DNA of 64,000 nt, taken from IMG/VR virus record IMGVR_UViG_3300031760_000035, positions 1 through 64,000 of that record; one strand, written 5' to 3'. Every line of letters begins with the position of its first letter. Within the stretch, counting starts at the first letter, position 1. Below, one piece after another: positions 1 to 55,492 of this stretch. The position numbers and the translations under genes are program-made. The notes below the pieces were generated by a model that was not told the origin of the DNA, did no database searches, and worked only from the letters and a program-made list of their open reading frames with translations. The stretch is from a virus (Duplodnaviria; Caudoviricetes).

Positions 1-127
1 AGATCGGCGCAGCGGATGGAGGTGGGCCGCGCGCCGGCCGCGCGCCGTGCTCGAGGCCGCGTCAAGATCGGCGCAGCGGATGGAGGTGGGCCGCGCGCCG
101 GCCGCGCGCCGTGCTCGAGGCCGCGTC
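1..127. repeat. Tandem direct repeat, 2 x 63 bp (period 64)
   Basis: 1-63 is identical to 65-127; very GC-rich; at the window edge. Confidence 0.9.
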
Positions 128-33328: not shown

Positions 33329-33627
33329 CACTCGTCCTCCGGCGCGCACCAGTAGACGTTGACCGACCAGTGCTTGAACCCATCTGCGCGCTTCTGCGTC
33401 CACGACCAGTTGTACCAAGGCTCACCGACCTCATAGAACTCGTCACGCAGGGAGTCCATAAGCTCGGCCATCTCATCCTTGCTGGCAATGTGGACGCTGA
33501 AACCGCCCTCGGTCGATGGGTAGTCTGGCGCGAACTTCTCGCACACATCCACGCACACAGGCTCGATGAAGGAAGCCTCGAACTCGTCAATCCAAGACTT
33601 CGCCGAAACCTCAATCGTCGCTGGCAC
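33328..33627 (-). CDS. Acidic hypothetical protein
   Basis: GTG start after AGGAGG. Confidence 0.55.
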   Translation of the reverse strand: MPATIEVSAKSWIDEFEASFIEPVCVDVCEKFAPDYPSTEGGFSVHIASKDEMAELMDSLRDEFYEVGEPWYNWSWTQKRADGFKHWSVNVYWCAPEDE

Positions 33628-33805
33628 CGCAATCCCTCCTGTTCCACTCCTCGATGGTTTCCCGCATGCTGTTGCTGTTGACGGTAGTAAAGACGTGCCC
33701 CAGCTCGCATATGACGATGGGGCTGTGAGTCCAATTGCTGTCACGATCCGCATAGTGCGCGACGCTCCCGCAGAAGGGGCACCGCTTAACCTGACTTGCT
33801 GCCAT
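33611..33805 (-). CDS. Lar-like zinc-ribbon protein
   Basis: CPFCG...C...WNRR. Confidence 0.7.
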   Translation of the reverse strand: MAASQVKRCPFCGSVAHYADRDSNWTHSPIVICELGHVFTTVNSNSMRETIEEWNRRDCGASDD

Positions 33806-36748: not shown

Positions 36749-37231
36749 CTATCCAGCAAGCTCAAGCGTCTGCTGCGTCCCGACCGTCTCCTCGATGGCC
36801 GCGAACACGTCGGACAGCTCGTTGAGCGCACGGTACTTTCGGACGAACGCCATAAGCTCGCGCTTCGCGCTGTCGAGCAACGCATCCCTGCTGTCGCTGC
36901 TCCTGAGCACCACGCCTATCGACCTGAACTCGCGGCTGTTATCCGACGCGACGGGAACGAAGGCGCGAACGGGTTCACTGCTTCTCCCGACGCTCACCTC
37001 TATCGAGCGGATGATGTACGACGCCTGCCGCTCTCGGTACTTCTCTGCGGCAACGCTGTCATCCCACTCGAAGCACCCGTGCAGCGGCGCATCGTCCGGC
37101 CTGCTTGCGTTCACCAGGTTCGCTGGCGTCAATCCCCCGCTGGACTCAAGGCGCTCGCACTCCTCGCCAGCGACCTGCGCGCTCACTGGGAGACGCGCGC
37201 CCGACTTGACCTTGTATATCACAACCACCAC
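36749..37231 (-). CDS. Partner protein downstream of the pentamer array
   Basis: GGAGG RBS; LTPANLVNASRPDDAPLHGCFEWDDSVAAEKYRERQA motif. Confidence 0.75.
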   Translation of the reverse strand: MVVVIYKVKSGARLPVSAQVAGEECERLESSGGLTPANLVNASRPDDAPLHGCFEWDDSVAAEKYRERQASYIIRSIEVSVGRSSEPVRAFVPVASDNSREFRSIGVVLRSSDSRDALLDSAKRELMAFVRKYRALNELSDVFAAIEETVGTQQTLELAG

Positions 37232-37235
37232 CTCC

Positions 37236-37271
37236 GAAAAGAATCGTGGGGCCGACGAGCGCCGACCCCAC
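37236..37271 (-). terminator. Intrinsic terminator closing the pentamer array
   Basis: GTGGGGTCGGC-GCTC-GTCGGCCCCAC stem followed by GATTCTTTT. Confidence 0.75.
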
Positions 37272-37278
37272 CGACAAA

Positions 37279-37789
37279 GTGCCGCACGGTGACTTGCCTA
37301 GCCCCACAACGACTTGCGAGAACGTGCCTAGACTCGCCTGCCACGCCGTGCCAAATCACGCCATACACTAGCTCGCCCAAACCAGCCGTGCCTGCCAAAC
37401 CTTGCCTTGCCTTGCCACGCCCAACATCACCAAGCCTGAACTCGCCAAGCCTGCCGTGCCTCGCCTCACCAAACCGCGCGTCGCCGCGCCGTGCCAAGCC
37501 CCACCTAACCTGCCATGCCTCACCTAGCCAGAACTCGCCAAAACTAGCCAATCCCCGACTCGCCACGCCTGCCTTGACTCGACGTGCCGTGACACGCCTA
37601 GACGTACCTGACCTATCCTCGCCTGCCGCACCAAGCCATACCACGTCCTGCCTAGCCGAGCCTAACCGCAACGAACCGCACCCTACCTGCCATGCCTCGC
37701 CTGACCTCGCCTTGCAGTACCGTGACAAGCCACACCTGCCAAGCCTCGCCTGGCCAGAACCCGCCTTGACACGCCATTCCTTGCCTGCC
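37279..37789 (-). repeat. Phased (GGY-NN)95 pentamer array, nine units punctuated by GGCA; putative guide-RNA array
   Basis: 95 x 5 + 9 x 4 = 511 nt exactly; 65 of 95 triplets are GGC/GGT and the other 30 differ by one base; NN is variable. Confidence 0.9.
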
Positions 37790-37806
37790 ACGTATGAATC
37801 GTTTGT

Positions 37807-38496
37807 CTAGCTGATCTTCAACTCAAACATGCCGTTCTGACCGTCCTTCTCGGGACGCCACTCTCCGATTCCGCAGCAGAAGCCGCCGAACCCGACCATG
37901 TTGAGAATCTGTTCGAGCGAGTACTTTCCGTCCTTGTTGTACTTGAGACGCAGGGGAATCTCCCACTCCTTGAACTCGCCACGATAGCGGATGTCTGCCG
38001 ACTTGCTCATTCCGCCGACGCGAACCATGTCCTCACGCATCTCTGGCACAGAGCCGACGATCTCCGCCATATCAACGGTTGATGCGTCCGTGCCGCCCTC
38101 AAGGAAGAACGTGCCGCGAAGCTCAGTCTGCTTGACATCCAGTCCGGCTCGATATGCACCAGAGATGATTGCCTGTTTGATGCCATTTACCGGAAATCCG
38201 AACTTTGCGCCAGCAGCGACGCAGTTGTTGAACGCGGCTTCCGCCTCCTCGTCACTGTTCCCGTCAAGCGGCTTGAGCGTGAGCCAGTACAGGCTGTTGA
38301 TGAAGTCGTTGTATGGAATCTTTATGTCGTGCTTCGCGCCGACCTTCTTTCCGCGCTGCTTGTCCAGCATCATCTGCTTTGCCTTGTCGCTCCAAGCGTG
38401 GACGATGAGCGGTGTCGTGCCGACGATGGCGATGTCCACTGTCTCGATGTTGATGGGCTTGATTTCAATGGTCTTGACGCTCTTTGCAGTTGCCAT
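37807..38496 (-). CDS. RAMP/Cas7-like protein (putative RNA-guided effector)
   Basis: beta1 DIAIVGTTPLIVH, helix FPVNGIKQAIISGA, C-terminal Gly loop GFGGFCCGIGEWRPEKDGQNGMFEL; AAAGGAG RBS. Confidence 0.7.
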   Translation of the reverse strand: MATAKSVKTIEIKPINIETVDIAIVGTTPLIVHAWSDKAKQMMLDKQRGKKVGAKHDIKIPYNDFINSLYWLTLKPLDGNSDEEAEAAFNNCVAAGAKFGFPVNGIKQAIISGAYRAGLDVKQTELRGTFFLEGGTDASTVDMAEIVGSVPEMREDMVRVGGMSKSADIRYRGEFKEWEIPLRLKYNKDGKYSLEQILNMVGFGGFCCGIGEWRPEKDGQNGMFELKIS

Positions 38497-38518: not shown

Positions 38519-38556
38519 GGAAGCGGCTCGGGCGTGGTGACCCAAGCCGCTTTGCT
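38519..38556. promoter_or_regulatory. Hairpin upstream of the RAMP-like gene
   Basis: AAGCGGCT-CGGG...CCCA-AGCCGCTT stem. Confidence 0.5.
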
Positions 38557-38557
38557 T

Positions 38558-39274
38558 TTACTCTGCGCCCTTCGGACGCCATTCCTTCATCTGGTACAGC
38601 GACCAGTCAACCTGGTCCAATGCGCTCTGCTGCTGCGGTGCCTCGTTGAGGTAGGACTCGAAGTGCGACGGCCTGAAAAGCGTCTCTGGCCGAAGGTACT
38701 TCTCCTGCTCGGTTCCGAGCCACTGGGAAACCTTCACGTCTATGACGTGCTTGAAGTCATCGAGCGTGTAGCCGTCAAGGAACCTCGCACGAATCATCCT
38801 GCGCGTGGCCTCCGTGCCTACTCTGTAGTGCTTGCCGGACTTCTCGTTTAGGTAGGCGATCACATCCCCGTAGGGCACATCCGCATCGTCGGGCTTGCCC
38901 GACAAAGTAGTTCTTTCTTTACTAGCAACCTTATCTAGTATTCTTTCTTGCTGATTTGAGGAGTCTGCTTCGTCATTCTGGCAAGTCTGCCTTGCCGATT
39001 TAGCAAGGCAGCTATGCAACGTCCTTGTTCTGCCGTCGAACGACGCAATGCTGATGTAGCCGAGACTCTTTAGCTTGGTTATCGACCTTGACACCGTGGA
39101 CTCGCCACACTGGCAGAAGTCTGCGAGGTACTTGTTACTTGCGTAGCAACCCCTCTCGCCGTCAAGGCTGTCAATCTCTAGTAGAATCATCTTCTCTATC
39201 GCATTGAGCCGCATGTCAAGCCAGACGCTTGCTGGAAACCAGACGCCCTTGAACTCGCGTTTGTCTTTTCCCAT
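38558..39274 (-). CDS. Phage replication initiator (N-terminal wHTH plus conserved phage C-terminus)
   Basis: CYASNKYLADFCQCGESTVSRSITKLKSLGYI; YLRPETLF...FESYLN; AT-rich central segment (possible origin). Confidence 0.85.
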   Translation of the reverse strand: MGKDKREFKGVWFPASVWLDMRLNAIEKMILLEIDSLDGERGCYASNKYLADFCQCGESTVSRSITKLKSLGYISIASFDGRTRTLHSCLAKSARQTCQNDEADSSNQQERILDKVASKERTTLSGKPDDADVPYGDVIAYLNEKSGKHYRVGTEATRRMIRARFLDGYTLDDFKHVIDVKVSQWLGTEQEKYLRPETLFRPSHFESYLNEAPQQQSALDQVDWSLYQMKEWRPKGAE

Positions 39275-39729
39275 CACGCATCGCCGCGCACGATGCAATC
39301 GATAATCGGTTGTACATCACTTGCATCGACGTACACGATGCCGTTCATCGTCCTTGTCTCTATGCCGAGCAAACGAATCGCGTTCTTGACGTTGCGTAGG
39401 GTGATGTACGGGAACCCTCGCGATGTGTCAATGACTTCGCTGAGCGCCCTCTTGACCCTGGGGAGCGACACGCTCTCGACGTTGTTCGGCTGCTTGTTGT
39501 ACATCGGCATGTACTTCCAGATGTACTTATTCTCAAGCATGTCGAGATCGTCTACTGAACACGGCATGGCGTAAGCCTCGTCATGCTCCTTGTCGGTATG
39601 GCTCGCAATACGCGACACGCCAACCCTTGTTTGGCCCACATATACGACCTCGCCGTGATTGAGAAGGAAGTAGATGAGACACCTGTTGCGCTCATCTACT
39701 TTAATGCAGTCACTCTCCTCGAACTTCAC
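39274..39729 (-). CDS. GIY-YIG-like nuclease domain protein
   Basis: LIYFLLNHGEVVYVGQT...R...H; ENKYIWKYMPMYN. Confidence 0.7.
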   Translation of the reverse strand: MKFEESDCIKVDERNRCLIYFLLNHGEVVYVGQTRVGVSRIASHTDKEHDEAYAMPCSVDDLDMLENKYIWKYMPMYNKQPNNVESVSLPRVKRALSEVIDTSRGFPYITLRNVKNAIRLLGIETRTMNGIVYVDASDVQPIIDCIVRGDA

Positions 39730-47128: not shown

Positions 47129-47204
47129 TGGCTGGACTGGCTGGGCTTGAACCAGCGACACGGAGCTTAACGGGCACCTGCTCTGCCAACTGAGCTACAG
47201 TCCA
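47129..47204 (-). tRNA. tRNA-Asn(GTT)
   Basis: 76-nt cloverleaf with encoded CCA; anticodon loop CC-GTT-AA (C33); U29:U41 mismatch. Confidence 0.9.
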
Positions 47205-47205
47205 A

Positions 47206-47279
47206 TGGCAGGTCTGGAAGGTAACGCTCCCTCGTCTTTGGCTTTGGAGGCCACTGCTCTGCTATTGAGCTACAGACCT
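47206..47279 (-). tRNA. tRNA-Trp(CCA), atypical
   Basis: 74-nt cloverleaf with CCA; G27:A43 mismatch gives a 4-bp anticodon stem; T-loop AGCGTTA; D-loop AATAGCA. Confidence 0.8.
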
Positions 47280-52618: not shown

Positions 52619-55492
52619 TTATGATGCACTTGGCATGAGCCATGTGGTCGAGAACGTCAGCCACCTGCTTGTGGTCATCGCTACCTGCGTTCCTGAGCCG
52701 TTGCGATAGCGCGAGGCTGAGACGTTGCCGGACGGACTCACGCCTAGCAGCCAGATATCCTGATTGCTGCCCTGACATAGGACATTGATGCTATCAAGCG
52801 GCCTGTACGCGGCTGGGATGGTACCAATGGTAAGCGATCCGCCTGCCTCCACCTCCGTACTCGGCTTGACCGCACCGACGAGCTGGCACACGCAGCCCCA
52901 GCGGATGACGTGCGGGGTGTACGAGGAGCCATAAGCGAGGCAGTTGCTTCCGAGCGACAGCGCCGCGCTGACTGGCTCATACTCGATGTAGTGCCAGCTG
53001 TCCCACTCGCCACTGTCAGGGTCGTAGTGCCGCCTGCGGAGCATGCCGCTGTGGAGCAGCGTCATCTGGGTGTGCGACGGGACGGATGAGGCTGCGTACC
53101 CGCCATTGGTCGCGGTGAGAGTGAGCCAGCCGCCTGACTGGCCGATGCGGGCCATGTAGTCCTTGCCATCCGTGCGCCCGTTATTATGGAAGTCTATGAG
53201 GTTCGCCACCTCTACGTTGTCATCAACGTAGACCTTACCGCCGACCGTGCACGAGCCAGCAGCGTTCACATTGCCGTCCCAGTCCACGGTGAAGGCGTTG
53301 CTGAAGTCCACTATCGACTCCCCGTTGCCGATGATAAAGGCATAGGTGCCGTTTTGGTCGGTAGCGTTGTGCCTACCTATCACCGTTTGGTTGTCCGACA
53401 TTGCCTTCACCCACAGGCCGTGGGCGAAGGACTGCTTGCCCGCGGCCACCGCGCTGCTCCCTCCCGCATGGGAGTTCTCGCCCCTTGCCTCGGTGAAGTA
53501 CCCCTCCGCGTGGGATGCCTTGCCAGATGCCTTGGAGTTCCATCCCTCCGCGTGGGAGTCCATGCCGGATGCCGCAGTCGAACTCCCCTCCGCGTGGGAC
53601 GCGTTGCCAGATGCGTTGGCTAGTATCCCCTCCGCGTGGGAGTACGCGTTGGATGCCTTGGTCAAGCGTCCCTCTGCATGGCAGTCTGGGCCGGATGCCG
53701 CAGTCGAGTCCCCCTCGGCATGGCTACAGCCCCCAGATGCGGTGGTCCCCATACCCGTGGCGAACGACATGGCCCCGATGTTGCCCTTTCTGATTCCCAT
53801 GGTGTATGCCTTCGCGTACTCAGACTCCGTGGTGTAGGTCACCGATAGGATGCTGCCCTTAGCTGGGGCCGTGGCCATGCGTATCATGGATTCCCCAACA
53901 AGCGAGTAGGTAGCGATTGTGTCGTCCACCGTGACCGAGGTGATTGAGTGCACCGCGAGTCTGAGGTAGAAGTCAGTGGTCGTGCCGTCGCCTTCGTACT
54001 GCTCGTTTAACGTCGCCTGCCCCTGCTCGTCGCGGAGGTCGCTCACGTGGAGGTAGGTCGTGCCCTCCTTGTCGGTGAGCTGCAAGCTGTGGTAGTCGAT
54101 GATGGCATGGCTCTCCCCGTCCGCGCCAATCTGCATCGCTGGCCTGCTGACCTCGCGAAGGACGCTCGCGTACACCTCGACGTGGTAGGTGGTCCCGACC
54201 TCAAGGGCGTACTTGTACCAGTCCTCGTCGCTGTATTCGGACTCTTGGCTGCTGTCCTTGCACTGGTAGGCAAACGAGTATCGCGCGTCCGTGGGGAAGA
54301 GCGTCTGACCAGACGCGCCGAAATCGACCAGCCTTGCGTCGGTGACCTCAACGCCGTCGAGGTAGAGCTTGTAGCTGCTCACGTCAATCGGCTTGAGCTG
54401 CCTAAGCAGCTTCTCCATTGCGGACTGTTCGCGCTCGGTGCTGCCCATGGCTGGCACCGTCTTCGTCTCTGGGGAGTCGGTCATGTCGATTGCTGGCTCC
54501 CCGCCCTCATCGACTTCGGTTGGGGTCGCATTCGTCGTGAAGTCGCGCTCGTAGACCTTCACCTCGTCGCTGATGTAGTCGAGTCCGCTGACCCGCACGT
54601 AGTCCACGCCTCCGCCCGACTTGATGCGAAACGAGGTGTCATCCATCTGGGTGTGCGCGAAGCCGTCGAAGCCAATCTGCGAACCGCTCTCGCCGAAGCG
54701 CGCGTAGACGTTGCCCGAGTCATTGCCGTCACCGTCGAACATTGCGATGTCGCTGTTGTTCACGTTGTACGTCACGACAACCTCAGCGCCCCTAGCGGGT
54801 GCGGTGGAGAACGTGATGACGTTGCCTTCAAGGCTGTACGCCCGCGTTGGGCTGTTGCGGACGGTGACCGCCTTGACCCTCGTGGGGACGCTCGAAAGCT
54901 CGAACGTGACCGTAGAGCCGTTTCCGACGAACCTTTCGGTGACGGACTGCGCTGGAAGCAGGGCCAGAAGGTTGTTCGCGCCGCTCCTGAAAAGCTGCCC
55001 TATGGAGTTGATGAGCACGTTCGCACCAGTCTGCGCGCCAGCCCACTCCTCCTGAGTCACCTCGGTTACGTGAATGCCTGAGTCATCCGTCCAGAAGTGT
55101 TGGCCCACGGCGGATGCGACCCTCTGAGCCGCAGCCGCTATGCCATTGGTAATCTCGGCACTGCGCACAGCGGCCTCGACTGCTCGGCTCAGCGGCAACA
55201 CGATTGACGCGACGCCCCTGCTGCCAACGCTCGGGTCGCTGGCATTACCGACTACGGACACCTGACCGCCGCCGATCTCGTAGCGCACCGCATCGCCCTC
55301 GGTCGCCTCTGCCAGCACCGAGCCGTCTACGGGCGTCTCGAAGTCGTTGCCCGGTAGCCGCACCCACGCGGTGCCGTCATCGTCGCGACGGACGAAGGTT
55401 GCGGTTCCTGACTGGGGCTGCTTCTCGACGGACTTTCCGCTGCGGAGCCTGTCGGCGAGACGCCATGCAACAGGCACGCTTATCTTCTCCAA
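52619..55492 (-). CDS. Tail fibre / receptor-binding protein
   Basis: 957 aa; 14-aa SHAEG beta-roll repeats; C-terminal gp53/H-type-like domain; late-gene position. Confidence 0.8.
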   Translation of the reverse strand: MEKISVPVAWRLADRLRSGKSVEKQPQSGTATFVRRDDDGTAWVRLPGNDFETPVDGSVLAEATEGDAVRYEIGGGQVSVVGNASDPSVGSRGVASIVLPLSRAVEAAVRSAEITNGIAAAAQRVASAVGQHFWTDDSGIHVTEVTQEEWAGAQTGANVLINSIGQLFRSGANNLLALLPAQSVTERFVGNGSTVTFELSSVPTRVKAVTVRNSPTRAYSLEGNVITFSTAPARGAEVVVTYNVNNSDIAMFDGDGNDSGNVYARFGESGSQIGFDGFAHTQMDDTSFRIKSGGGVDYVRVSGLDYISDEVKVYERDFTTNATPTEVDEGGEPAIDMTDSPETKTVPAMGSTEREQSAMEKLLRQLKPIDVSSYKLYLDGVEVTDARLVDFGASGQTLFPTDARYSFAYQCKDSSQESEYSDEDWYKYALEVGTTYHVEVYASVLREVSRPAMQIGADGESHAIIDYHSLQLTDKEGTTYLHVSDLRDEQGQATLNEQYEGDGTTTDFYLRLAVHSITSVTVDDTIATYSLVGESMIRMATAPAKGSILSVTYTTESEYAKAYTMGIRKGNIGAMSFATGMGTTASGGCSHAEGDSTAASGPDCHAEGRLTKASNAYSHAEGILANASGNASHAEGSSTAASGMDSHAEGWNSKASGKASHAEGYFTEARGENSHAGGSSAVAAGKQSFAHGLWVKAMSDNQTVIGRHNATDQNGTYAFIIGNGESIVDFSNAFTVDWDGNVNAAGSCTVGGKVYVDDNVEVANLIDFHNNGRTDGKDYMARIGQSGGWLTLTATNGGYAASSVPSHTQMTLLHSGMLRRRHYDPDSGEWDSWHYIEYEPVSAALSLGSNCLAYGSSYTPHVIRWGCVCQLVGAVKPSTEVEAGGSLTIGTIPAAYRPLDSINVLCQGSNQDIWLLGVSPSGNVSASRYRNGSGTQVAMTTSRWLTFSTTWLMPSAS
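53395..53745 (-). repeat. 42-nt (14-aa) YadA-head-like ASGxxSHAEG repeats
   Basis: About 8-9 tandem units in the tail fibre. Confidence 0.8.

What the first reader, a model, noticed from the sequence alone, without database searches (positions are those of the whole stretch)
36749..38496. RAMP/Cas7-like gene plus phased GGY-NN array, terminator and partner gene: candidate non-CRISPR RNA-guided phage system
Seen in sequence: 17 nt after the stop of a 229-aa gene, a 511-nt tract (37789 to 37279, - strand) parses without indels into 95 pentamers with a fixed triplet (GGC/GGT in 65; one mismatch in the other 30) and a free NN. A 4-nt GGCA splits it into nine units of 9, 9, 12, 10, 11, 11, 11, 10 and 12 pentamers. 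A strong terminator and a 160-aa gene follow. Established: the protein has RAMP/Cas7 hallmarks (N-terminal strand IVGTTPLIVH, a PxxxxKxAI helix, and a C-terminal Gly-rich loop), and Cas7 polymerises along RNA with fixed periodicity. No cas1/2/5/6 or CRISPR repeats are present. Inference: each subunit grips a GGY and displays NN, so the array encodes nine processed guides in a non-contiguous code. I recall a recent report of phage RAMP plus GGY/NN systems (VIPR) but cannot verify it here. The class may therefore be newly described, while this locus and its guides may still be uncharacterised.
Basis: partly seen in the sequence, partly recalled or inferred. Interest (0 to 1): 0.97.

Follow-up and report, generated by a model that had tools for sequence, protein, structure and literature searches.

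The report
Phage VIPR guide-RNA locus, staggered array
This 75-kb uncultured phage carries a VIPR system, a CRISPR-related RNA-guided DNA-silencing device first described in 2026 preprints, with a Cas7-like protein, nine five-base-coded guides and a partner gene; it is a new example of a known kind, and I could not find what its guides target.

Summary
The 511-nt tract at 37279-37789 (- strand) parses into nine units of 9, 9, 12, 10, 11, 11, 11, 10 and 12 GGY-NN pentamers, each preceded by a 4-nt GGCA. Of the 95 pentamers, 65 are perfect GGY and 30 have one mismatch. It is the only such array in the contig.

The 229-aa protein is a Vipr homologue. Its only PDB sequence match is the SUSP1 Vipr protein, the GGY-contact residues are conserved, and its predicted fold matches Cas7/Csm3.

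Of 118 contigs held here (117 of them related loci, from at least six phyla), 86 carry same-strand GGY-NN arrays with the same GGCA break. About 108 carry the 157-160-aa partner gene. That gene is therefore an accessory (vap) gene of unknown function.

The class was published in 2026 (VIPR; bioRxiv 10.64898/2026.04.26.720920, .720927, 2026.10.15.759431). The tail-less GGCA architecture most likely matches that paper's "staggered arrays", which are described there but not among the architectures it confirmed experimentally.

In relatives, first guides match rival vipr genes codon by codon under the 1-nt-skip rule, while the carrier's own gene is recoded. For this locus's nine guides I found no convincing target.

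This scan has already found the same kind in at least 15 other genomes.

The parts
37807..38496 (-). vipr gene: 229-aa Vipr (ancestral RAMP/Cas7-like) protein
   Evidence: The only PDB sequence hit is 'SUSP1 Vipr protein' 36pp_D: E = 4.4e-4 for the single sequence and 8e-6 for the family profile. hhalign against SUSP2 Vipr gives probability 96%. The AF2 model has pLDDT 84, and its top Foldseek PDB hits are Csm3, type VII Cas7 and Cas7-11 at E about 1e-5. The protein matches PHROG 4652 and has 6316 homologues. The SUSP1 GGY-contact residues H17, R138, C173, D177, W178 and R179 align to H33, R172, C208, E212, W213 and R214. Five of these six are invariant in 25 relatives; C208 is not in the invariant or >=90% lists.
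37790..37806 (-). 17-nt spacer between the vipr stop codon and the first GGCA
   Evidence: Read directly from the sequence. No promoter-like site lies between gene and array, so co-transcription with vipr is inferred.
37279..37789 (-). vrRNA array: nine GGY-NN guide units, each preceded by a 4-nt GGCA (staggered, tail-less architecture)
   Evidence: There is no Rfam family here, so no hammerhead. Among the 118 contigs, 342 of about 430 frame breaks are GGCA. The first triplet after a break is GGC in 312 of 369 cases. Guide length peaks at 9-12 pentamers.
37741..37785 (-). Guide 1 (9 pentamers; NN = AA AT GT AA GG CT CA GA TT)
   Evidence: Six of 9 pentamers are perfect GGY.
37692..37736 (-). 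Guide 2 (9 pentamers; NN = GT TT AC AC AA GA CA GA AT)
   Evidence: 7 of 9 perfect GGY.
37628..37687 (-). Guide 3 (12 pentamers; NN = AG GC TC GC TA TC TA AG GT AT TT GC)
   Evidence: 10 of 12 perfect GGY. It contains an in-frame GGCAG that is not a boundary.
37574..37623 (-). Guide 4 (10 pentamers; NN = GA TA CA AC TA GT AC AC GA AA)
   Evidence: 5 of 10 perfect GGY; the others are GTY or GGA.
37515..37569 (-). Guide 5 (11 pentamers; NN = GT GA GG TT TA TT GA CT TA GA AT)
   Evidence: 7 of 11 perfect GGY.
37456..37510 (-). Guide 6 (11 pentamers; NN = TA GG TT AC GC GA GC TT GA GA AC), the best-formed guide
   Evidence: 10 of 11 perfect GGY.
37397..37451 (-). Guide 7 (11 pentamers; NN = TT GA CA TT GA TG GT AA AA AA TT)
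   Evidence: 9 of 11 perfect GGY.
37343..37392 (-). Guide 8 (10 pentamers; NN = AC TG TG GA AG AT GT TT AC GT)
   Evidence: 6 of 10 perfect GGY.
37279..37338 (-). Unit 9 (12 pentamers, degenerate; NN = GA TA AC CT AA GT GG TA AA AC GC AC); may be a decayed terminal unit rather than a working guide
   Evidence: Only 5 of 12 pentamers are perfect GGY. The unit is about 80% like the terminal unit of L039/L040, and the terminator that follows is homologous.
37236..37271 (-). Intrinsic terminator closing the array transcript
   Evidence: The stem is 11 bp with 8 G-C pairs and a 4-nt loop, followed by GATTCTTTTC. The fold in context is -31.7 kcal/mol.
36749..37222 (-). vap-type accessory gene (157 aa from GTG 37222; the listed ORF of 160 aa starts at 37231)
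   Evidence: A homologue lies adjacent on the same strand in about 108 of 118 contigs. The order is vipr-array-vap in 69 and vipr-vap-array in 11. It matches PHROG 15946, unknown function, and has no Pfam or PADLOC hit. The invariant motif is PLH..FEWDD..AA..YR..QA. The AF2 model has pLDDT 89: an N-terminal alpha/beta domain plus a 48-residue C-terminal helix. The only fold similarity is weak and non-significant, to winged-helix proteins. It shows no sequence similarity to SUSP2 vap1.

Best explanation
This is a VIPR (Viral Interference Programmable Repeat) locus of the tail-less, 'staggered' array type, carried in the early/replication module of a 75-kb uncultured phage whose nearest relatives lie in Coriobacteriia genomes.

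Inferred by homology with the characterised SUSP1 and P. fulva systems:
- vipr and the array are transcribed as one RNA that ends at the terminator.
- Vipr protomers bind one per pentamer. They grip each GGY through the conserved His (RRM strand), Arg (thumb) and C-x-G-E-W-R (G-loop) residues and display the NN pairs.
- Each filament then reads double-stranded DNA by the 1-nt-skip rule (guide NN pairs with target NNx). This matches codon positions 1-2 and skips the wobble base, and it silences transcription of the bound gene.

Inferred from sequence only: the 4-nt GGCA step (a GGY followed by one N instead of two) breaks the 5-nt register about every 10 repeats. It so marks where one filament or guide ends and the next begins, giving eight well-formed guides and one degenerate terminal unit.

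The conserved 157-aa partner is this type's accessory protein. Its role is unknown; DNA binding, filament capping or guide maturation are guesses.

The likely purpose is competition with other mobile elements or rival phages, but the targets of these nine guides were not found.
For: Protein:
- The only solved-structure sequence match is SUSP1 Vipr.
- hhalign against SUSP2 Vipr gives 96% probability.
- The fold is Cas7/Csm3-like.
- All six published GGY-contact residues (read) are kept in this protein, with D177 as E212; five are invariant in 25 relatives, C208 is not listed.

RNA:
- The parse is exact at 5-nt period with no 3-nt period.
- Guide lengths of 9-12 fall within the published range of 9-16 repeats.

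Comparative:
- 86 of 118 contigs carry same-strand arrays next to vipr. The loci come from Actinomycetota, Bacillota, Alphaproteobacteria, Bacteroidota, Planctomycetota and Verrucomicrobiota, and from cultured Gordonia and Mycobacterium phages.
- GGCA accounts for 342 of about 430 breaks.
- NN strings are unrelated between phages whose Vipr proteins are 74-82% identical.
- The vap gene is syntenic.

Code:
- Only under the 1-nt-skip rule do guides of relatives hit foreign vipr genes at >=0.9 match (4 real against 0 shuffled).
- All four are the first guide of their array, on the sense strand, in codon frame 0.
- The carrier's own vipr is recoded at that site in each case.
- N4 and N5 base composition resembles codon positions 1 and 2.

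Context: a virus record, 98% complete by CheckV, with no Cas1 and no CRISPR.
Against: - There are no expression, processing or binding data for this locus or for any staggered array. The source paper states that only the hammerhead and single-guide architectures were confirmed by sRNA-seq.
- No natural target was found for any of the nine guides, so function in this phage is unproven.
- 30 of 95 pentamers deviate from GGY, and unit 9 is heavily degenerate.
- A strong terminator separates the array from vap, so vap needs read-through or its own promoter.
- Identity to the characterised type II Vipr is detectable mainly in the C-terminal half. The vap is unrelated in sequence to vap1, so mechanistic details may differ.
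Confidence: 0.9

Rival explanations
1. The locus is a VIPR system, but the array is not cut into nine guides at GGCA. It works instead as one or a few long RNAs, or the true boundaries lie elsewhere, and GGCA is only a tolerated register slip or a loading site.
For: No RNA-end data exist for staggered arrays. GGCAG also occurs in frame inside guide 3 without being a boundary. Some relatives use other 4-nt steps such as GGCT, CGCA, TCAA and GAAT.
Against: The spacing between GGCA steps is tightly distributed (mode 9-12, range 7-17 pentamers) and matches the 9-16 repeats of measured vrRNAs. GGCA followed by GGC is conserved across phyla. The anti-vipr matches in relatives span exactly one GGCA-delimited unit. 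The legend of fig. S18 describes boundaries at 1-nt overlaps, which is the same geometry.
Confidence: 0.08
2. The tract is translated as a Gly/Arg/Trp-rich protein (ORF 37219..37791, 190 aa), as Gordonia phage UmaThurman's annotation of the equivalent tract as gp40 would imply.
For: One sense frame is open across the whole tract. GenBank annotates the homologous tract of UmaThurman as a CDS.
Against: Periodicity is 5, not 3; lag-3 identity is below background. In 42 of 58 long arrays all three sense frames contain stops. What is conserved is GGY every 5 nt, which cannot be a conserved peptide. The -1 step at each GGCA would change the reading frame relative to the repeat.
Confidence: 0.01
3. 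The tract is a DNA-level element such as origin iterons or a G-rich structure-forming region belonging to the adjacent replication-initiator gene (38558..39298), and the RAMP-like protein is unrelated to it.
For: It lies in the replication module, next to a Phg_2220_C/DnaD-like initiator and RecT. One strand is G-rich.
Against: Across 118 contigs the array travels with vipr and vap, on their strand, and not with the initiator or RecT, which are not conserved neighbours. The protein keeps the residues that read GGY in RNA. The variable NN positions have codon-like composition, and in relatives they spell foreign genes.
Confidence: 0.01

Closest known systems
VIPR systems with 'staggered' vrRNA arrays (bioRxiv 10.64898/2026.04.26.720920, main text and fig. 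S18 legend)
   Same: Shared features are a Vipr RAMP, a vap gene and a contiguous GGY/NN array with no tails or ribozymes. One guide ends where the next begins with a 1-nt overlap, which is the same geometry as a 4-nt GGCA step. The context is viral.
   Different: Nothing defining differs. The figure and supplementary tables are not held, so the type number (I-VII) and the vap number could not be assigned. This particular phage and its nine guides are not described anywhere I could search.
Type II VIPR of Escherichia phage SUSP1/SUSP2 and the P. fulva prophage (same preprint; cryo-EM in 10.64898/2026.04.26.720927; biology in 10.64898/2026.10.15.759431)
   Same: The Vipr proteins are homologous and share the same GGY-reading residues. 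Guides have about 11-12 GGY-NN repeats. The core is two genes, vipr plus vap.
   Different: In SUSP2 each vrRNA is a separate unit with its own upstream region and a conserved 3' tail of about 40 nt (a pseudoknot cap), and repeats are mostly GGT. Here guides abut with only GGCA between them, there is no tail, and repeats are mostly GGC. This Vipr is 229 aa against 195-202 aa, with similarity mainly in the C-terminal half. The vap is unrelated in sequence to vap1.
Class 1 CRISPR-Cas backbone proteins (Cas7 family: Csm3, type VII Cas7, Cas7-11)
   Same: Both have the RRM/RAMP fold with a G-rich loop and a thumb. Both polymerise along a guide RNA with fixed periodicity and flip out bases at each subunit (the papers read).
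   Different: There is no CRISPR array, no Cas1/2/5/6 and no Cas model hit in PADLOC. The period is 5 nt with only 2 nt read per subunit, against 6 nt with 5 read. The guide is genome-encoded repeat code, not acquired spacers.

Membership tests
VIPR system | Vipr protein: a RAMP homologue related to the described Vipr family (RRM core, G-loop, thumb) | tested here: met
   The only PDB sequence match is SUSP1 Vipr (E = 4.4e-4 single sequence, 8e-6 profile). hhalign probability is 96%. The Foldseek top hits are all Cas7-family RAMPs.
VIPR system | Residues that read GGY (SUSP1 H17, R138, C173, D177, W178, R179) are conserved | tested here: met
   They align to H33, R172, C208, E212, W213 and R214. 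Five of the six are invariant in 25 relatives; C208 is not in the invariant or >=90% lists. The residue list comes from 10.64898/2026.04.26.720927.
VIPR system | Adjacent non-coding tract of alternating GGY/NN pentamers, about 9-16 per guide | tested here: met
   Nine units of 9-12 pentamers; 65 of 95 are perfect GGY and 30 have one mismatch; lag-5 z = 9.9.
VIPR system | Minimal locus (vipr plus an accessory vap gene) without cas genes or a CRISPR array; mostly viral | tested here: met
   The vap is syntenic in about 108 of 118 contigs. There is no Cas1, no CRISPR-like repeat and no PADLOC Cas hit. The record is a virus record.
VIPR system | Guides specify DNA targets by the 1-nt-skip rule (NN pairs with NNx) | tested here: inconclusive
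   No target was found for this locus's nine guides. In relatives of the same array type the rule holds: four first guides hit foreign vipr genes at >=0.9, frame 0, against 0 shuffled, and no other skip length does so.
VIPR system | vrRNAs are expressed, processed and co-purify with Vipr; the RNP represses transcription | not testable with these tools
   This needs sRNA-seq, pull-down and reporter assays.
VIPR type II (SUSP1 / P. fulva clade) | Each vrRNA ends in a conserved structured 3' tail; the accessory gene is vap1 | tested here: not met
   Only 4 nt lie between guides. There is no tail and no Rfam structure. SUSP2 shows tails. The vap shows no similarity to SUSP2 vap1.
VIPR staggered-array architecture | Contiguous array in which successive guides abut or overlap by 1 nt (a -1 register step), without ribozymes or tails | tested here: met
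   A GGCA 4-nt step precedes each of the nine units. The same step makes up 342 of about 430 breaks in relatives. The definition comes from the fig. S18 legend only, as the figure is not held.
CRISPR-Cas class 1 effector (Cas7) | Association with a CRISPR repeat-spacer array and other cas genes | tested here: not met
   Only the fold is shared.

The most novel reading that the evidence does not exclude
The tail-less GGCA-stepped arrays represent a distinct way of making guides. The 4-nt step alone sets filament length and guide ends, with the conserved 157-aa vap (motif PLH..FEWDD..AA..YR..QA plus a long helix) acting as cap, ruler or processing factor in place of the type II pseudoknot tail. 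The nine guides of this phage would be aimed at conserved coding motifs of elements not yet sequenced, or at host genes, rather than at rival phages.
Probability: 0.25. Interest if true: 0.55.

Novelty: new member of a known kind. Interest (0 to 1): 0.33.

Why it matters
VIPR is a months-old discovery: an RNA-guided DNA-recognition system with a gapped code, proposed to predate CRISPR. Only type II has been studied biochemically.

This locus is a clean, compact example (about 1.75 kb) of the staggered, tail-less architecture, which is not among those the preprint confirmed experimentally. It has eight well-formed guides, a terminator and a conserved accessory gene of unknown function. It therefore suits a test of how guides are delimited without a tail and of what this vap does.

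The comparative data gathered here add computational support in three ways:
- The GGCA step is the guide boundary across phyla.
- The codon-phased 1-nt-skip code also holds for this array type.
- First guides often attack rival vipr genes while the carrier's own gene is recoded.

The locus does not change what is known about the class.

Tried and rejected
Target hunt for the nine guides (NNx patterns, both strands), all negative or at chance:
- Own 75-kb contig: best match 14/18.
- 1.5 Mb of 118 related contigs: all at the shuffled-guide level.
- IMG/VR guide 1, full length: 3 hits, all one 37%-GC phage family, about the number expected by chance.
- IMG/VR guide 2, 8 pentamers: 51 hits, 35 of them one conserved 'IFTTKEQDI' motif of low-GC podovirus-like contigs. 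I judged this chance amplified by family abundance.
- IMG/VR guide 3, 8 pentamers: the best hit is 22/24 in a tape-measure gene of a 35%-GC contig. After seeding P is about 0.05, the GC is wrong for a shared host, and the phage has no homologous gene of its own.
- IMG/VR guide 5, 8 pentamers: best 21/22, non-coding, not significant.
- IMG/VR guides 6, 7 and 8: 0 hits.
- Metagenome contigs: guide 3 full length gave 0 hits. Guide 6, 9 pentamers, gave 59 hits with a null-like distribution of extra matches.
- Coriobacteriia genomes: guide 6 in 201 genomes gave one 3-mismatch hit, which is chance. Guide 3 in 101 genomes gave none.

Other dead ends:
- Fold of the vap: Foldseek gave nothing at E <= 0.001, only weak winged-helix rows. 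The VIA wide search was dominated by the long C-terminal helix and was uninformative. The protein atlas returned only viral hypothetical clusters.
- VIPR type number and vap number: the preprint's supplementary tables and figures are not held.
- My first all-vs-all run had a counting bug that capped scores at 0.5. It was discarded and redone.
- The skip-3 'hits' are array-to-array matches in unmasked arrays, not targets.
Full report
**What is there**

On the - strand the window holds a 229-aa ORF (37807..38496). It is followed by 17 nt, a 511-nt G-rich tract (37789..37279), a strong intrinsic terminator (37271..37246) and a 157-160-aa ORF (36749..37222/37231).

A dynamic-programming parse rewarded only GGY at pentamer positions 1-3 and allowed any frame break at a penalty.

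- Sixty-five pentamers are perfect GGC/GGT and 30 have one mismatch; 17 of those are GTY.
- Identity at lag 5 is 0.49 against 0.30 in shuffles (z = 9.9). Lag 3 is below background.
- The array score is 64 against at most 9 in shuffles.
- Nothing else in the 75-kb record comes close.

**The class is published**

VIPR systems consist of a Vipr protein (an early-branching RAMP) and vrRNAs of 9-16 GGY/NN repeats. They read double-stranded DNA by a '1-nt-skip' rule and silence transcription. They are mostly phage-borne, usually have one accessory gene (vap), and fall into seven types (10.64898/2026.04.26.720920).

Three companion preprints are relevant:
- One gives the cryo-EM mechanism and names the residues that read G1, G2 and Y3 (10.64898/2026.04.26.720927).
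- One shows phage-versus-satellite competition (10.64898/2026.10.15.759431).
- One recovers 99 VIPR-like 5-nt-period clusters from intergenic space (10.64898/2026.10.21.760802).

The first paper mentions 'staggered arrays with overlapping vrRNAs', in which guides derive from 1-nt overlapping positions. Its text says that only the other two alternative architectures were confirmed by sRNA-seq.

**The protein is a Vipr**

- Against all PDB sequences the only match is 'SUSP1 Vipr protein' (36pp): E = 4.4e-4 with the single sequence and 8e-6 with a 25-member profile.
- hhalign against the SUSP2 orthologue gives 96% probability.
- The SUSP1 contacts H17, R138, C173, D177, W178 and R179 align to H33, R172, C208, E212, W213 and R214. 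Five of these are invariant among 25 relatives of 66-88% identity; C208 is kept here but is not in the invariant or >=90% lists.
- An AlphaFold model (pLDDT 84) finds only Cas7-family proteins at the top of the PDB: Csm3, type VII Cas7 and Cas7-11, at E about 1e-5.
- Pfam and PADLOC give nothing. PHROGs gives phrog_4652, 'unknown function'.
- The family is large, with 6316 proteins at E <= 1e-3.

**Relatives carry the same three parts**

I fetched 34 loci from species-representative genomes and 80 from IMG/VR, plus two cultured actinophage loci and SUSP2.

- Of the 118 contigs held (117 related loci plus this record), 86 have a same-strand GGY-NN array next to vipr at a strict threshold.
- 342 of about 430 register breaks are GGCA.
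- The triplet after a break is GGC in 312 of 369 cases.
- GGCA-bounded units are mostly 9-12 pentamers long.
- The hosts span Actinomycetota, Bacillota, Alphaproteobacteria, Bacteroidota, Planctomycetota and Verrucomicrobiota.
- Phages whose Vipr proteins are 74-82% identical to this one have entirely different NN strings. Only the degenerate last unit and the terminator look homologous.

The downstream gene is equally faithful. A homologue sits next to vipr in about 108 of 118 contigs, as vipr-array-vap (69) or vipr-vap-array (11). The replication initiator, RecT and HNH-like neighbours are not conserved. The downstream gene is thus an accessory (vap) gene.

- Its invariant motif is PLH..FEWDD..AA..YR..QA.
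- The model (pLDDT 89) has an N-terminal alpha/beta domain and a 48-residue helix.
- Fold searches gave only weak, non-significant winged-helix rows.
- It has no sequence similarity to SUSP2 vap1.

**Which kind of VIPR**

In SUSP2 each vrRNA is a separate unit with a conserved 3' tail of about 40 nt. Here the guides abut with only GGCA between them, and Rfam finds no ribozyme. A 4-nt GGY-N unit has the same geometry as a 1-nt overlap between pentamer registers. I therefore file the locus under the 'staggered' architecture, not type II. The type number cannot be assigned because the supplementary data are not held.

**Not a protein-coding tract**

One frame is open across the array (a 190-aa ORF), and GenBank annotates the equivalent tract of Gordonia phage UmaThurman as gp40. 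However, the periodicity is 5 and not 3. In 42 of 58 long arrays every sense frame has stops.

**Does the code hold for this array type?**

I tested 459 guides from all loci against 1.5 Mb of the same loci, with arrays masked, under skip lengths 0-3 and with shuffled-guide controls.

- Restricted to vipr genes, only skip 1 gives matches of at least 0.9: 4 real against 0 shuffled.
- All four are the first guide of their array, on the sense strand, in codon frame 0, so the skipped base is the wobble position.
- The clearest case is the Sphingomonas soli prophage guide. It spells E-D-M-V-R-V-G-M, the conserved thumb motif, and matches at least 85% in 83 of 116 foreign vipr genes. It matches the carrier's own gene at only 13/16, partly through a CGx-to-AGG arginine switch.
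- The same guide matches this window's vipr at 14/16.
- Base composition at N4 (A 0.37, G 0.30, T 0.21, C 0.13) and at N5 (A 0.30, T 0.28, C 0.23, G 0.19) looks like codon positions 1 and 2.

These results support the published rule for the staggered type. [quoted passage not shown]

**Targets of this locus**

None was found. The details are under 'tried and rejected'. In short:
- There is no self-match.
- Nothing exceeds shuffled-guide level in related phages.
- Exact-seed scans of IMG/VR and of metagenome contigs gave zero hits, chance-level hits or hits in wrong-GC DNA.
- Two mismatch-tolerant scans of Coriobacteriia genomes were empty.

The NN strings are AT-richer (37% GC) than codon positions 1-2 of the phage's own ORFs (about 56%). 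This may point to lower-GC targets. It may instead reflect the general depletion of C at N4 seen in all guides.

**How it most likely works**

Shown here: homology of the protein, the repeat code, the synteny, and the codon-phased matches in relatives.

Inferred from the characterised type II systems:
- Vipr binds one protomer per pentamer.
- GGY bases are flipped out and NN bases are displayed.
- Recognition proceeds through an R-loop/triplex and leads to transcriptional silencing.

Inferred from sequence only:
- The array is co-transcribed with vipr and ends at the terminator.
- GGCA marks guide boundaries.
- Unit 9 is decayed.

Unknown: the vap's role and the targets.

**Verdict**

It is a new member of a known kind. 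Earlier follow-ups in this scan reached the same filing for at least 15 other genomes, so this one adds a well-formed example and some comparative statistics rather than a new concept.

Noticed in passing
L035:3617-3927 (Gordonia phage UmaThurman, NC_031249.1 about 33354-33664): The GenBank CDS gp40 ('hypothetical protein') directly after the Vipr homologue gp39 is a GGY-NN array with GGCA steps, so it is probably a mis-annotated vrRNA array. gp41 would then be the vap.
   Followed up: partly
L036:2616-2862 (Mycobacterium phage Saal, KJ025956.1): Cheoctovirus mycobacteriophages (Saal, LastJedi, Quico, ByChance, BobaPhett and others) carry a Vipr homologue (gp51, 32% identity). A GGCNN/GGCA array lies upstream of it and overlaps the annotated start of gp51. 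This gives cultured, tractable hosts for the staggered type.
   Followed up: partly
L013:5078-5171 and relatives: The first guides of several arrays spell conserved Vipr motifs (EDMVRVGM, VKMTELRGTFF, G.Y.LEQI.N) of rival systems in codon frame. The carrier's own vipr is recoded at those codons. The Sphingomonas guide matches this window's vipr at 14/16.
   Followed up: yes
window 36749-37231: The vap ORF as listed starts at GTG 37231 (MVVVIYK). Homologues start M-I/V-Y-K/Q, and a GGAGG lies 8 nt before the GTG at 37222, so the real protein is probably 157 aa.
   Followed up: partly
window 37279-37789 and all related arrays: The commonest departure from GGY is GTY: 17 of 30 variants here and about 11.5% of 2586 pentamers in relatives. 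The second G therefore seems the least strictly required base. C is depleted at the first N (0.07 here, 0.13 overall).
   Followed up: partly
window 1-127: TRF reports a perfect 64-nt direct repeat in two copies at the very start of the record. It could be a terminal feature or an assembly artefact.
   Followed up: no
window 53458-53657: A 42/84-nt tandem repeat (about 3.7 and 2.2 copies, 68-81% matches) lies here. Whether it sits in a coding region was not checked.
   Followed up: no
window 47129-47204 (-): ARAGORN calls a single tRNA, tRNA-Asn(GTT). It does not call the unusual tRNA-Trp(CCA) that another first-reader note places at 47206-47279.
   Followed up: no
window 39277-39729 (-): This 151-aa ORF between RecT and the replication initiator has weak GIY-YIG (Pfam E = 0.07), PHROG endonuclease and PADLOC PDC-S14 (E = 4e-6) matches at its N-terminus.
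   Followed up: no
window 38520-38555: A G+C-rich hairpin lies in the 61-nt gap between the replication-initiator stop and the vipr start. It could be an attenuator or terminator upstream of vipr.
   Followed up: no
G000 (whole 74,958-bp record): The record is classed as a linear IMG/VR virus, 98% complete by CheckV. No tyrosine integrase (PF00589) was found, so the phage may be lytic or may use another integrase type.
   Followed up: partly
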